Source: Escherichia coli (lineage in GTDB: Bacteria; Pseudomonadota; Gammaproteobacteria; Enterobacterales; Enterobacteriaceae). Taken from it: a DNA stretch of 64,000 nucleotides. The stretch lies in assembly GCF_016903815.1 (NCBI RefSeq), contig NZ_CP069973.1; one strand, 5' to 3'. Made by a program: the position numbers. Position 1 is the stretch's first letter. Each line of letters begins with the position of its first letter. This document shows positions 21,001 to 22,958 of the stretch, piece after piece.

Positions 21001-22958
21001 CAGCCAGTAATATAACCGCCAGCAGGGAAAACGATTTAATGGAACTATTCATCATTGTTAACCTTAAATAATGTACGGAAAATTGCGAATAAGAAATTGC
21101 TGTTAAAATTAGAACGAATATCCCACGCCGACACCCGCACCGAAATCAGATTGTGTATCCGCAGAAATACCTGCTTTAAGTACCGTATGCGTTCCGGCAT
21201 TAAAAGATGTTCCTACAGACACCGCAGATTCACCGTTGAAGGTTCCCGCTCCCGCTGACACCATCATCAAGTCACCGGTTTTCACCTGTGGTTGTGAGGC
21301 GATAGCGATGGCTGATGCAGTTCCCGCATTGGCTTCTTTACGATTGTCCTCAACTTCGTTTTTCAGAGAATCGAAATGGTTATTGAGCGTGTTAATTTGT
21401 TGGCTGTTATCTGCGACCCGTTTTTGCGTGTTGGTTAACTGTTGCTGCGTTTGTGCGGAATCTTGTCTCAGACTTTCAATTTGCTCATGTGCCTGGACAG
21501 ACTTCTGCGCCAGACTTTGCATTTGTTTATCGTATTGAGCCCTTTCTTTTTGCTGTTGTGCTGCCACATCGGTTGTCAGTGCATTCATTTTCTGCCCTTG
21601 TTCCGTGGTAGTGCGCTGATTAGCCTCATTTTGAGCCGCCAGCCTGGCATTAATCATCTCCTGATAATGCGCGGTATTTTGCGTATCTCCAGTCGCGGCG
21701 AGCGTTTTTTGTGTGGCTACGATCTGCGCCTGTTGCTCTGTAATTTGCGTTTGCTGGGCATCAGTTACCGCAGACTGTCGGGCGTTGATCATGCTCTGAT
21801 AACGGGCGGTTGTCTGTACATCACCTGTAGCGGCAACGGTTTTTTGTCCTGCGTCAGGATCTGTCTGGACAGGGGGAGTCTGAGTGGTATCAGGTGTTTC
21901 AGAAGGGATGTAGTGATGTTCAGTCAAATAGGTATACGCAGCGGGGCTGTTGTCTGTGCGTTCTAAAAAGCGGGTAATCTTCTGCTCAATCTCCGATTGC
22001 GACATGCCAGAGTTAATGGCTGAAAGCTCTGTTGCCGCCGCTTCAATGGTATCACCAGCTAAAACAACAGGGCTGGATGTTGCTGAAATTATGAGTGCCA
22101 GTAAAGCTACGTTTACAGTTTTCATTCATTTTCTCTTGTTCAAAATAAGTCGCATTAATGTTTCTATAAGAAACAAATAATATTGTTTTAAGAAATAAAC
22201 TGCGTTGCAATTTAATCGAAATCTACGCCGCCATTTGTGTGATGTAAAGCGCATTTTTGTCTGGTGTAAGCGTAAACACCACCAATAAGAAACAAAAAAT
22301 GTTTCTTATATAAATAAAATCGAAAATCATTTTGTGCTCTTTCAATGTAAAAAAGAGTAAAGACTTGTTTTGATAAGCGAAATAAATTCTGTTTCTGGAC
22401 TAAACGTGAAGCGGTTCCTGATGTGTGCTAAAATGCGTTTCTTTGATAAATCTCAATTTTTAAGAGGTTTACGCCAGGCAGGAAAATTTAAATGAATGAA
22501 TTTGAGAAGATTTTTAATGAAATGAATCTGGACCGGGCATTGCTACCGATCCTTTTTCGTTCGAACCGGTCAACAGTGTGGAAATATTTAAGTGGCGATA
22601 GTACGGCTCCTGCCTCAGCTATGTCACTGATTATGCTGTTGCAGTTAATCCAGAAACGAAACCCCGATCTGTTAGCCGAATGGTTAACGCTTTCTGATTT
22701 CACCATTCCGCCAGAAGTTTACCTGGACCAGCCTGATTACTGGAAAGGGTGGGTGTATACGCAACACAAGGTCAATAAAAACGTCCTGGAATATCTAAAA
22801 AAACATTATCCGGATGAAGACCAAAAAAACATGAATAAAGGTAGTGACGAGTAATTTGCCAATGCCAGTTAATATAGCGGAGGCGGCCTACGATTCGGGC
22901 GCAGACTTCCAGGCATGATAAGACGCGCCCGCGCCGCATCAGGCATCAGCGCATAACC

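What the first reader, a model, noticed from the sequence alone, without database searches (positions are those of the whole stretch)
21540..21850. Near-identical tandem ~110-bp repeats inside the autotransporter stalk-coding region
Two adjacent copies are visible on the plus strand (cattaatcatctcctgataatgcgcggtattttgcgtatctccagtcgcggcgagcgttttttg vs cgttgatcatgctctgataacgggcggttgtctgtacatcacctgtagcggcaacggttttttg), encoding ...KTVAATGDVQTTARYQSMINARQSAVTDAQQTQITEQQAQIVATQ / KTLAATGDTQNTAHYQEMINARLAAQ.... In-frame tandem repeats in adhesin stalks commonly vary in copy number by slipped-strand or recombinational gain/loss, changing stalk length and antigenicity.
Basis: partly seen in the sequence, partly recalled or inferred. 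Interest (0 to 1): 0.5.

Follow-up and report, generated by a model that had tools for sequence, protein, structure and literature searches.

The report
Old two-unit repeat in adhesin stalk
[quoted passage not shown] Relatives gain and lose this module, but this allele has been fixed at two copies in every genome checked.

Summary
The repeat is real but overstated. Window 21577-21846 holds two head-to-tail, in-frame units of 135 nt (45 aa), not ~110 bp. They are not near-identical: 58% nt identity overall, 70% in the conserved first 69 nt, and the longest shared exact run is 8 nt. Tandem Repeats Finder does not detect them, but self-alignment scores far above shuffles.

They lie in the stalk of a 338-aa trimeric autotransporter (window 21109-22125, minus strand) with a signal peptide, coiled coil and YadA anchor. 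This is the E. coli O-island 29 gene z0639, published as "gmrA".

Across the Escherichia family the same module occurs 1-3 times, with unit lengths of 38, 45 or 52 aa (steps of one heptad). Two sister alleles, 459 and 497 aa, differ by exactly one 114-nt unit. Modular gain and loss therefore happens where units are still 88-94% identical.

The window allele behaves as frozen. The gene measured 1017 nt in all 22 genomes sampled with the gene alone, and a further 42 sampled spans fit the same length, out of about 1027 complete genomes carrying it. No variant one unit longer or shorter appears among the top protein-database hits.

This is an ordinary feature of low interest. One side observation matters more: the literature treats this surface-adhesin-like protein as a transcription factor.

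The parts
21109..22125 (-). 338-aa trimeric autotransporter gene (RefSeq 'YadA family autotransporter adhesin'). It is the orthologue of O157:H7 z0639, published as 'gmrA', in O-island 29.
   Evidence: ORF and translation. RefSeq annotation. Pfam YadA_anchor. The published gmrA deletion primers abut this ORF in EDL933.
22054..22125 (-). Codons 1-24, a Sec-type signal peptide (MKTVNVALLALIISATSSPVVLA|GD).
   Evidence: Read directly from the translation: a basic n-region, a hydrophobic core and a V-L-A cleavage motif. No signal-peptide predictor was available.
21847..22053 (-). Codons 25-93: a small N-terminal helical domain (about aa 27-69) followed by a Pro/Thr-rich linker (about aa 70-93).
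   Evidence: AlphaFold2 model: helices 27-34, 43-56 and 61-69 at pLDDT about 76, and residues 76-103 below 50. No Pfam head-domain match.
21712..21846 (-). Repeat unit 1 (aa 94-138, QKTVAATGDVQTTARYQSMINARQSAVTDAQQTQITEQQAQIVAT). The conserved core is aa 94-116, window 21778-21846.
   Evidence: offset 135, identities. (unit alignment, invariant K2 A6 G8 D9 Y16 Q17 M19 A22 A26).
21577..21711 (-). Repeat unit 2 (aa 139-183, QKTLAATGDTQNTAHYQEMINARLAAQNEANQRTTTEQGQKMNAL). The conserved core is aa 139-161, window 21643-21711.
   Evidence: In the models the helix is interrupted at G146-D147 (monomer) and at T145/G146-D147 in all three protomers (single-chain construct).
21292..21576 (-). Rest of the coiled-coil stalk (aa 184-278). 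It is non-repeated and conserved among alleles.
   Evidence: Continuous helix 148-276, with pLDDT up to 96. Regular heptad register from about aa 198 in the crude register tracing.
21112..21291 (-). YadA-like beta-barrel membrane anchor (aa 279-338), ending in ...GVGYSF.
   Evidence: Pfam PF03895, E = 1.6e-11, aa 279-338. Sequence matches to the solved anchors of AtaA, Hia and YadA.
20633..21055 (-). Downstream 140-aa lipoprotein gene (z0638 orthologue, lipobox LLAG|C). It is co-oriented with the adhesin gene and always accompanies it.
   Evidence: Translation. Synteny in E. coli, cryptic-clade and E. ruysiae loci. Primer mapping.
22492..22854 (+). Divergently transcribed 120-aa gene (z0640 orthologue), the third gene of O-island 29.
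   Evidence: The only family signal is a weak Pfam hit to the MqsA antitoxin (HTH part), E = 0.12.

Best explanation

**Anatomy of a unit.** Each 45-aa unit has two parts.
- A conserved core of about 23 aa: [QR]-K-T-V/L-A/S-A-x-G-D-x-x-x-x-A-R/H-Y-Q-x-M-x-N/D-A.
- A variable, Gln-rich helical spacer.

**Likely structural role (inferred).** The core is kept by purifying selection. It most likely forms a defined break in the trimeric coiled coil at the invariant Gly-Asp. The spacer changes length only in whole heptads, so units are 38, 45 or 52 aa. All three lengths leave the same remainder of 3 when divided by 7.

**How the family evolves (shown).** Whole units, and larger stalk cassettes, are duplicated or deleted by recombination or slippage between units that are still similar. 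Such units are 88-94% identical and share 41-43-nt identical runs.

**State of the window allele (shown).** The two units have diverged to 58% nt identity with no shared run above 8 nt, so this process is effectively switched off. The allele is a stable two-unit, 338-aa form, among the shortest full-length forms seen at this locus.

**Consequence (inferred).** Module number and spacer length set the stalk length. One unit adds about 6-7 nm, taking about 1.5 A per residue of helix. This changes reach and surface epitopes between lineages, not between sibling cells.
For: **Repeat anatomy and significance**
- Period, identities and shuffle tests.

**Age of the duplication and selection on the core**
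- Core: dN = 0.18. Tail: dN = 0.75.
- dS is not computable because synonymous sites are saturated.
- 9 of the 18 codons that encode identical core residues use different codons.
- Over the 69-nt core, unit 1 is closer to unit 1 of other alleles (62/69) than to its own unit 2 (48/69).

**The gene is a trimeric autotransporter**
- YadA_anchor, E = 1.6e-11.
- Matches to the solved AtaA, Hia and YadA anchors.
- Long helices 101-145 and 148-276 in the model.

**Variation across the family**
- Protein lengths run from 338 to 586 aa.
- Core spacing is 38, 45 or 52 aa. Most alleles have 2 copies and some have 3.
- More distant relatives have 1 or 2 copies.
- TRF detects true tandem arrays in relatives: 114 nt x 2.5-2.8 copies at 84-88% matches, and 156 nt x 2.4 copies at 91%. 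It detects none in the window.
- The 497-aa and 459-aa alleles differ by one 114-nt block, with 5 mismatches in the other 1380 nt.
- Identical runs between similar units reach 41-43 nt.

**Stability of the window allele**

**Helix break at the Gly-Asp**
- In the monomer model the first helix starts at G101 and there is a break at G146-D147.
- In the single-chain three-protomer construct, all three protomers break at T145/G146-D147.
Against: - Length invariance was sampled, not enumerated. About 64 of roughly 1027 genomes were inspected, and only 22 of them give the gene length directly.
- The structural role of the core is inferred from conservation and low-to-moderate-confidence models.
  - The monomer model has pLDDT about 68 at the break.
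  - The trimer construct used artificial linkers and no alignment, and its chain topology could not be inspected.
- A crude register tracing placed the discontinuities at different positions in the two units.
- The direction of the 497/459 event (gain or loss) is unknown. The two similar units differ at 14/114 nt while the flanks differ at only 5/1380. Loss from a three-unit ancestor or gene conversion are both possible.
- No adhesin activity has been shown. In O157:H7, deleting the whole island did not change adherence to HeLa or Caco-2 cells (PMC5826968).
Confidence: 0.8

Rival explanations
1. The repeats are an active contingency locus whose copy number changes between strains or cells by slipped-strand mispairing or unequal recombination, changing stalk length and antigenicity on short time scales.
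For: - The units are tandem and in frame.
- Homologous alleles in other Escherichia lineages differ by whole units.
- Those alleles contain arrays that TRF detects at 84-91% matches.
Against: - In the window allele the units share 58% nt identity and at most 8 consecutive identical bases. From general knowledge, not tested here, efficient RecA-dependent exchange in E. coli needs roughly 20-30 identical bases.
- The gene measured 1017 nt in all 22 directly sampled genomes. Another 42 sampled spans fit the same length.
- All listed members of the protein cluster are 338 aa.
- No variant one unit longer or shorter appears among the top database hits.
Confidence: 0.06
2. There is no true repeat. 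The resemblance is only the compositional and heptad bias of a Gln/Ala/Thr-rich coiled coil.
For: - TRF finds nothing.
- The second half of each unit is barely above background: 30/66 nt and 7/22 aa.
- Several coiled-coil families give spurious weak Pfam and NCBIfam hits across the stalk.
Against: - The self-alignment score of 115 is about 10 SD above composition-preserving shuffles.
- The nucleotide signal sits at exactly one offset, 135.
- The 23-aa core, including the non-coiled-coil residues G-D and Y-Q-x-M, is invariant or nearly so in 18 aligned units.
- A profile of the unit finds only 10 cluster representatives among 1.84 billion proteins. A generic coiled-coil pattern would hit far more.
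Confidence: 0.02
3. The duplicated core is a beta-layer (alpha/beta coiled-coil element, Hartmann et al. 2016). Three residues around T-G-D leave the helix and cross the trimer axis, rotating the downstream helices by about 120 degrees. This would refine the best explanation rather than replace it.
For: - Beta-layers occur in trimeric autotransporter stalks, with motifs such as MATKDD and IENKADKAD (PMC4786415).
- AATGDV and AATGDT share A, T and D with MATKDD.
- The third beta-layer residue is expected to be D, N, T or S, and D fits.
- Unit lengths of 38, 45 and 52 all leave remainder 3 modulo 7, so each unit must contain a non-heptad insertion.
- The models break the helix at exactly T145/G146-D147.
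Against: - The expected partners are absent. Position g should be D, E or Q but is T or N here. Position e is often K or R but is V or T here (against the sequence).
- Gly at the central position is not the preferred small hydrophobic residue.
- DSSP assigns no strand in either model.
- The register tracing was inconsistent between the two units.
- No multimer prediction was possible.
Confidence: 0.25
4. This is the published view. The protein is the cytoplasmic transcription activator GmrA, and the repeated region belongs to a DNA-binding or dimerisation domain rather than an adhesin stalk.
For: Yang et al. 2018 (PMC5826968) report the following.
- Loss of motility and flagella in the z0639 deletion mutant, restored by complementation.
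- EMSA with N-terminally His-tagged protein on the fliA promoter.
- ChIP-qPCR with a FLAG-tagged protein.
- The same motility phenotype in eight strains.
- A CDD-predicted DNA-binding domain.
Against: - Their deletion primers bracket exactly this ORF. It begins with a Sec signal peptide and ends with a YadA beta-barrel anchor and a C-terminal Phe.
- No DNA-binding family reaches significance. The only such label is TMF_DNA_bd at E = 0.079 over aa 203-252, among other chance coiled-coil hits.
- An N-terminal His tag would mask the signal peptide and keep a Gln/Arg/Lys-rich coiled coil in the cytoplasm. This last point is inference.
Confidence: 0.07

Closest known systems
Trimeric autotransporter adhesins with long coiled-coil stalks (YadA, Hia, AtaA; Pfam PF03895 anchor)
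   Same: - C-terminal YadA-like anchor.
- Signal peptide.
- Coiled-coil stalk running directly into the anchor.
- A modular, repeat-built stalk whose length differs among alleles.
   Different: - It is very small at 338 aa.
- No recognised TAA head, neck or stalk Pfam domain was found besides the anchor.
- The N-terminal part is a helical domain of about 45 aa.
- No adhesin phenotype is known. The O157:H7 island deletion adhered normally (PMC5826968).
z0639 / GmrA of E. coli O157:H7 O-island 29 (Yang et al. 2018, PMC5826968)
   Same: - It is the same gene at the same locus, between ybbJ and cueR.
- 95.9% nt identity over the full 1017 nt (H21).
- The published deletion primers flank the ORF exactly.
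- The repeat units are essentially identical: unit 1 is the same in both, and unit 2 differs at one residue.
   Different: The published function is a transcription factor for fliA. That does not fit the secretion and membrane-anchor features found here. The papers found that mention GmrA present it as a transcription factor and do not discuss an autotransporter architecture or a repeat.
Repeat-number and cassette variation in TAA stalks (for example Bartonella BadA/Vomp neck-stalk repeats and Moraxella UspA modular cassettes). These examples are recalled from general knowledge and were not checked here.
   Same: Alleles differ by whole in-frame stalk modules. Examples here are one 38-aa unit, one 121-aa cassette and 108-115-aa cassettes.
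   Different: In the window allele the units are too diverged to keep varying. Variation is seen between deep lineages or species of Escherichia, not among strains sharing this allele.
Beta-layers / alpha-beta coiled coils (Hartmann et al. 2016, PMC4786415)
   Same: - A short conserved motif ending in Asp that interrupts a trimeric coiled coil in a TAA stalk.
- It is repeated at a spacing that is not a multiple of seven.
- The models predict a helix break at that spot.
   Different: The flanking signature residues (positions e and g) do not match. No strand was predicted and no trimer model was possible. Membership is unproven.

Membership tests
Trimeric autotransporter adhesin (type Vc secretion, YadA family) | C-terminal YadA-like beta-barrel anchor | tested here: met
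   Pfam PF03895, E = 1.6e-11, aa 279-338, covering the full model 1-60. phmmer matches to the solved anchors of AtaA (5e-7), Hia (4e-6) and YadA (0.04).
Trimeric autotransporter adhesin (type Vc secretion, YadA family) | N-terminal Sec signal peptide | tested here: met
   By inspection of the translation: MKTVNVALLALIISATSSPVVLA|GD. No dedicated predictor was available.
Trimeric autotransporter adhesin (type Vc secretion, YadA family) | Coiled-coil stalk leading into the anchor | tested here: met
   AlphaFold2 helices 101-145 and 148-276, pLDDT up to 96. Heptad pattern of core residues over aa 198-265.
Trimeric autotransporter adhesin (type Vc secretion, YadA family) | Recognisable TAA head domain (YadA-like head, Trp-ring, GIN and others) | tested here: not met
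   No Pfam or NCBIfam head-domain hit. Residues 27-69 are modelled as three short helices. Headless or small-headed TAAs exist, so this feature is not strictly required.
Trimeric autotransporter adhesin (type Vc secretion, YadA family) | Trimeric, surface-exposed, mediates adhesion | not testable with these tools
   This needs biochemistry. The only published phenotype is a motility defect with normal adherence (PMC5826968).
Copy-number-variable (contingency-type) coding tandem repeat | Units similar enough to misalign (long identical tracts, roughly 85% identity or more) | tested here: not met
   58% nt identity and a longest identical run of 8 nt. TRF is negative. The feature is met in the relatives L007 (88%, 41-nt run) and L009 (94%, 43-nt run).
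Copy-number-variable (contingency-type) coding tandem repeat | Copy number differs among closely related strains | tested here: not met
   For this allele the gene measured 1017 nt in all 22 directly sampled genomes, and 42 further sampled spans fit that length. Listed cluster members are all 338 aa. No variant one unit longer or shorter is in the top hits. Variation of 1-3 copies exists only between divergent alleles or species.
Beta-layer (alpha/beta coiled coil) | Insertion of 2 or 6 residues into the heptad register at the motif | tested here: inconclusive
   Unit lengths 38, 45 and 52 all leave remainder 3 modulo 7, so some insertion is required. The crude register tracing puts +4 at residues 120/121 in unit 1, but +2 at 152/153 and +1 at 158/159 in unit 2.
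Beta-layer (alpha/beta coiled coil) | Signature residues: third beta residue D/N/T/S, position g D/E/Q, position e often K/R (PMC4786415) | tested here: inconclusive
   With T-G-D as the layer, the third residue is D, which fits. Position g is T105 or N150 and position e is V103 or T148, which do not fit.
Beta-layer (alpha/beta coiled coil) | Three-residue strand crossing the trimer axis | not testable with these tools
   No multimer prediction is offered. A single-chain construct with three protomers showed a 2-3-residue helix break at T145/G146-D147 in each protomer, but no strand was assigned.
GmrA (z0639) as a DNA-binding transcription factor | Orthology to z0639 | tested here: met
   Same locus, 95.9% nt identity, and the published primers flank the ORF.
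GmrA (z0639) as a DNA-binding transcription factor | A recognisable DNA-binding domain | tested here: not met
   Pfam gives only TMF_DNA_bd at E = 0.079 among other coiled-coil chance hits. NCBIfam gives only SMC-like coiled-coil noise far below the curated cut-offs.

The most novel reading that the evidence does not exclude
**The reading.** The protein carrying these repeats, currently treated in the literature as the cytoplasmic transcription activator GmrA, is really an outer-membrane trimeric autotransporter. Under this reading the published motility phenotype would be indirect.

**What it implies for the repeat.** The stalk would be built from a previously undescribed repeat module. The module has a conserved A-x-G-D...Y-Q-x-M break element, present 1-3 times and spaced in whole heptads, and it would set the length of the surface fibre.

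**Scope.** This goes beyond the repeat finding itself.
Probability: 0.45. Interest if true: 0.55.

Novelty: new member of a known kind. Interest (0 to 1): 0.22.

Why it matters
**The repeat itself matters little.**
- It is a textbook case of how trimeric autotransporter stalks grow and shrink by modules.
- This copy is a decayed, stable one. It should not be treated as a typing marker or a phase-variable site.

**The family comparison gives a clear picture of stalk evolution at one fixed chromosomal locus.**
- Spacer indels come only in whole heptads (38, 45 or 52 aa).
- Whole units are gained or lost.
- Larger cassettes of 108-121 aa are duplicated.

**The more useful by-product concerns gmrA/z0639.**
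- This gene is cited as a horizontally acquired transcription factor controlling flagella in EHEC, EPEC, APEC and NMEC.
- Yet it has every sequence hallmark of a secreted, membrane-anchored adhesin.
- That conflict is directly testable and affects how O-island 29 is interpreted.

Tried and rejected
- **Tandem Repeats Finder** on the gene and its surroundings, down to score 30. It found nothing at the site. The generic repeat finder reported only short fragments and missed the 135-nt register. The repeat had to be shown by an offset scan and by protein self-alignment.
- **dS between the units.** It is not computable because synonymous sites are saturated, so no age estimate is given.
- **Heptad-register tracing** with a home-made Viterbi scheme. 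It placed the discontinuities inconsistently in the two units and is used only as weak evidence.
- **Beta-layer test with a single-chain "trimer"** (GCN4-pII adaptors and Gly-Ser linkers, no alignment).
  - It reproduced the helix break at T145/G146-D147.
  - It gave no strand, and its topology could not be inspected, so the result is inconclusive.
- **Is the downstream lipoprotein a SadB-like helper?**
  - No PDB sequence match was found; the best hit had E = 0.54 and was unrelated.
  - NCBIfam gave only sub-threshold lipoprotein hits.
  - The idea is left as an arrangement-level resemblance only.
- **Is z0640 a recognisable HTH regulator?** There was only a Pfam MqsA hit at E = 0.12 and no NCBIfam hit. 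This is not established.
- **Synthetic-junction BLAST queries** for variants one unit longer or shorter were considered. They were rejected because two-copy genomes would give two joined pieces with the same coverage and rank, so the listing could not separate the two cases.
- **Rfam scan of the whole window.** No RNA family overlaps the repeat.
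Full report
**1. What is at the coordinates**

The interval 21540-21850 lies wholly inside one ORF on the minus strand, window 21109-22125, which encodes 338 aa.

An offset scan of the gene gives a single outstanding self-match at offset 135 nt. The best 60-nt window has 43 matches. In 100 shuffles the mean was 31 and the maximum 37.

In coding terms there are two contiguous 45-codon units. Unit 1 is aa 94-138 (window 21712-21846). Unit 2 is aa 139-183 (window 21577-21711).

The identities between the units are as follows.
- Whole units: 78/135 nt (58%) and 25/45 aa.
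- First 23 codons: 48/69 nt and 18/23 aa.
- Last 22 codons: 30/66 nt and 7/22 aa.
- Longest exact shared run: 8 nt.

Protein self-alignment scores 115, against 45 +/- 7 (maximum 74) in 200 shuffles. Tandem Repeats Finder reports nothing in the gene.

The repeat is therefore real, tandem and in frame. Its period is 135 nt, not ~110 bp, and it is far from near-identical.

**2. What the gene is**

The protein has three parts.
- An N-terminal signal peptide (MKTVNVALLALIISATSSPVVLA|GD, read).
- A long helical region. In the AlphaFold2 model the helices are 101-145 and 148-276, with pLDDT up to 96.
- A C-terminal YadA-like anchor. Pfam PF03895 matches aa 279-338 at E = 1.6e-11. The same region matches the solved anchors of AtaA, Hia and YadA.

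RefSeq calls it "YadA family autotransporter adhesin". "Autotransporter stalk" is therefore right, with the qualifier that this is a trimeric (type Vc) autotransporter.

The window matches the E. coli strain 7/2 chromosome, and the annotated coordinates correspond one to one. The gene sits in a small island between ybbJ and cueR, next to a type I secretion system and the giant adhesin gene siiEA.

**3. The name of the gene in the literature**

In O157:H7 EDL933 the island is O-island 29, with genes z0638, z0639 and z0640. I mapped the published lambda-Red primers onto the EDL933 locus.
- The gmrA (z0639) primers abut exactly the 338-aa ORF (L002 4001-5017).
- z0638 is the downstream 140-aa lipoprotein gene.
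- z0640 is the divergent 120-aa gene.

Yang et al. 2018 (PMC5826968) describe z0639 as GmrA, a transcription activator that binds the fliA promoter. Later reviews repeat this.

I found no significant DNA-binding domain. The only such label is Pfam TMF_DNA_bd at E = 0.079 over aa 203-252, in a list of chance coiled-coil matches. NCBIfam gives only sub-threshold SMC-like hits.

This conflict is not part of the finding, but it is the most notable thing seen.

**4. Does copy number vary? This allele**

About 1027 of 5426 complete E. coli genomes carry this allele at 95% nt identity or more over the full length.
- With the gene alone as query, all 22 sampled rows in that class span exactly 1017 nt.
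- With 100-nt flanks, 42 sampled rows span 1217-1218 nt or 1248-1249 nt. The extra 31-32 nt matches the longer spacer between the gene and the lipoprotein gene, which is 84 nt in EDL933 and 53 nt in the window.
- One sampled genome has an IS1 insertion in the gene (H51).
- The 90%-identity protein cluster has 1187 member sequences. All 15 listed members are 338 aa, and together they were seen on more than 900 contigs.
- In the protein search, a 293-aa or 383-aa derivative would outrank the longer alleles. None is among the 120 top hits.
- The few 325-336-aa sequences are rare forms, each a single sequence or a pair, mostly from metagenome or read-archive assemblies. They carry small scattered indels of 2-13 aa, not unit changes.

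**5. Does copy number vary? The family**

The same locus in other E. coli lineages, cryptic Escherichia clades, E. marmotae and E. ruysiae carries alleles from 338 to 586 aa in the database search. One E. coli ORF reaches 600 aa from its most upstream possible start codon. The differences fall into four classes.

(a) The spacing of the conserved core is 38, 45 or 52 aa, which is steps of exactly one heptad.

(b) Most alleles have two cores, but some have three.
- P0018, P0020, P0021 and P0022 (497 aa) have 38 + 38 aa units before the last unit.
- P0023 and P0029 (480 aa, E. ruysiae) have 52 + 52 aa units before the last unit.

(c) Larger stalk cassettes are also duplicated. P0017 has a 121-aa duplication, and the 579-586-aa alleles have 108-115-aa duplications.

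(d) More distant relatives found with a profile of the unit have one or two cores.
- P0125 (363 aa) has one. A 363-aa member of its cluster is from Enterobacteriaceae bacterium FGI 57.
- P0126 (475 aa) has one.
- P0123 (397 aa) has two.
- Only 10 cluster representatives out of 1.84 billion match the profile, so the unit is specific to this small family.

At DNA level the relatives contain true tandem arrays.
- L007: 114 nt x 2.5-2.8 copies at 84-88% matches.
- L009: 156 nt x 2.4 copies at 91% matches.

The 497-aa allele (L007) and the 459-aa allele (L011) align with a single 114-nt gap and 5 mismatches in the other 1380 nt. This is a clean gain or loss of one unit. The similar units there share identical runs of 41-43 nt.

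**6. Age and selection**

Between the window's two units dS is saturated. dN is 0.18 in the core and 0.75 in the tail. Half of the identical core residues (9 of 18) use different codons.

Over the 69-nt core, the window's unit 1 is closer to unit 1 of E. marmotae-type alleles (62/69) than to its own unit 2 (48/69). In the E. coli and E. marmotae-type alleles examined, the last unit has its own signature (A-H-Y-Q-E/K/Q-M, then A-R/G/K-L). In E. ruysiae the last unit's core resembles the first type.

The duplication therefore appears to predate the divergence of these alleles. The core is under purifying selection, and there has been no recent conversion between the window's units.

**7. What the core may do**

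Nine positions are invariant across the 18 aligned units: K2, A6, G8, D9, Y16, Q17, M19, A22 and A26.

All unit lengths leave remainder 3 when divided by 7, so every unit must carry a departure from the heptad register.

The monomer model starts the first helix at G101 and breaks the long helix at G146-D147. A single-chain construct with three protomers breaks all three protomers at T145/G146-D147.

This fits a conserved coiled-coil discontinuity. It may be a beta-layer of the kind described in autotransporter stalks (PMC4786415). However, the flanking signature residues do not fit, no strand was predicted, and my register tracing was inconsistent. I rate that specific reading at about 0.25.

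**8. Mechanism, with status of each step**

Shown:
- a two-unit in-frame duplication in a TAA stalk;
- a conserved core joined to a spacer that varies in whole heptads;
- family-level gain and loss of units, and duplication of larger cassettes;
- constant length of the window allele wherever sampled.

Inferred:
- Unit changes arise by recombination or slippage between similar units. This is consistent with the 41-43-nt identical runs, and with their absence in the window, where the longest run is 8 nt.
- Each unit adds about 6-7 nm to the fibre, assuming about 1.5 A per helical residue.
- The core forms a structural break in the trimer.

Unknown:
- ligand and adhesin activity;
- the direction of the 497/459 event.

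**9. Verdict**

The feature is an ordinary, decayed modular repeat in a known class of protein, so interest is low.

The side observation that "GmrA" has the architecture of a secreted trimeric autotransporter deserves independent follow-up.

Noticed in passing
window 21109-22125 (-); EDL933 locus L002 4001-5017: The gene carrying the repeat is the orthologue of z0639, published as 'gmrA', a DNA-binding transcription activator of fliA (PMC5826968). It has a Sec signal peptide, a coiled-coil stalk and a significant YadA membrane anchor, and no significant DNA-binding domain. The published deletion primers flank exactly this ORF.
   Followed up: yes
window 22492-22854 (+): The divergent 120-aa neighbour (z0640 orthologue) has an N-terminus that looks like a helix-turn-helix (…RSTVWKYLSGDSTAP…). 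It gives a weak Pfam hit to the HTH part of the MqsA antitoxin (E = 0.12). On sequence alone it would be a more natural candidate regulator in this island than z0639. The 2018 paper reports that deleting z0640 did not change motility and that z0640 did not restore it in the island-deletion mutant.
   Followed up: partly
window 20633-21055 (-) and 20433-20636 (-): A 140-aa lipoprotein gene (lipobox LLAG|C) and a 67-aa gene encoding a hydrophobic stretch (probably a membrane protein) follow the adhesin gene in every locus examined. The layout resembles a helper-lipoprotein arrangement of the Salmonella SadA-SadB kind, which I recall from memory and did not check. No sequence similarity to any solved structure was found.
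   Followed up: partly
L005 1316-3118 (also L003, L004): In several RefSeq genomes the long alleles are annotated from an internal start, giving 349 or 431 aa without a signal peptide. In L005 the ORF continues in frame upstream to 600 aa and includes a normal signal peptide. The start was probably mis-called because of the duplicated stalk cassette. L003 and L004 were not checked in the same way.
   Followed up: partly
protein P0012 (345 aa): This is a mosaic allele. Its N-terminal 100 residues are almost identical to the 338-aa type (one substitution), and from within the unit-1 core onward it follows the long-allele type, with 52-aa spacing. This suggests inter-allelic recombination with a crossover in the conserved core.
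   Followed up: no
window 21056-21108 (intergenic, between the adhesin and lipoprotein genes): This spacer is 53 nt here and 84 nt in EDL933. O157:H7/O55:H7 and several ExPEC/APEC genomes sampled show the same 31-32 extra bases in their total span. This accounts for all the length differences seen when the gene was searched with flanks.
   Followed up: partly
window 22156-22199: A 22-nt direct repeat (TAATGTTTCTATAAGAAACAAA / TAATATTGTTTTAAGAAATAAA, 77% identical) lies 31-74 nt upstream of the adhesin start codon, next to a promoter-like site at 22248-22220. It may be a regulator binding site.
   Followed up: no
NZ_CM143912.1 (strain E04), hit H51: An IS1A element is inserted in the adhesin gene, splitting it into two annotated fragments.
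   Followed up: no
window 22912-22989 (-) and 51309-51375 (+): Two Rfam matches pass the gathering thresholds. One is naRNA4/CssrE (REP-element-derived), between z0640 and ybbJ. The other is the enterobacterial sRNA STnc480.
   Followed up: no
window 1-20025 and 31897-36772: The window starts inside the giant siiEA (BapA-related) adhesin gene, which is followed by its type I secretion ATPase and adaptor genes and by cueR. Further on there is an RHS core-protein gene with an IS1 immediately downstream.
   Followed up: no
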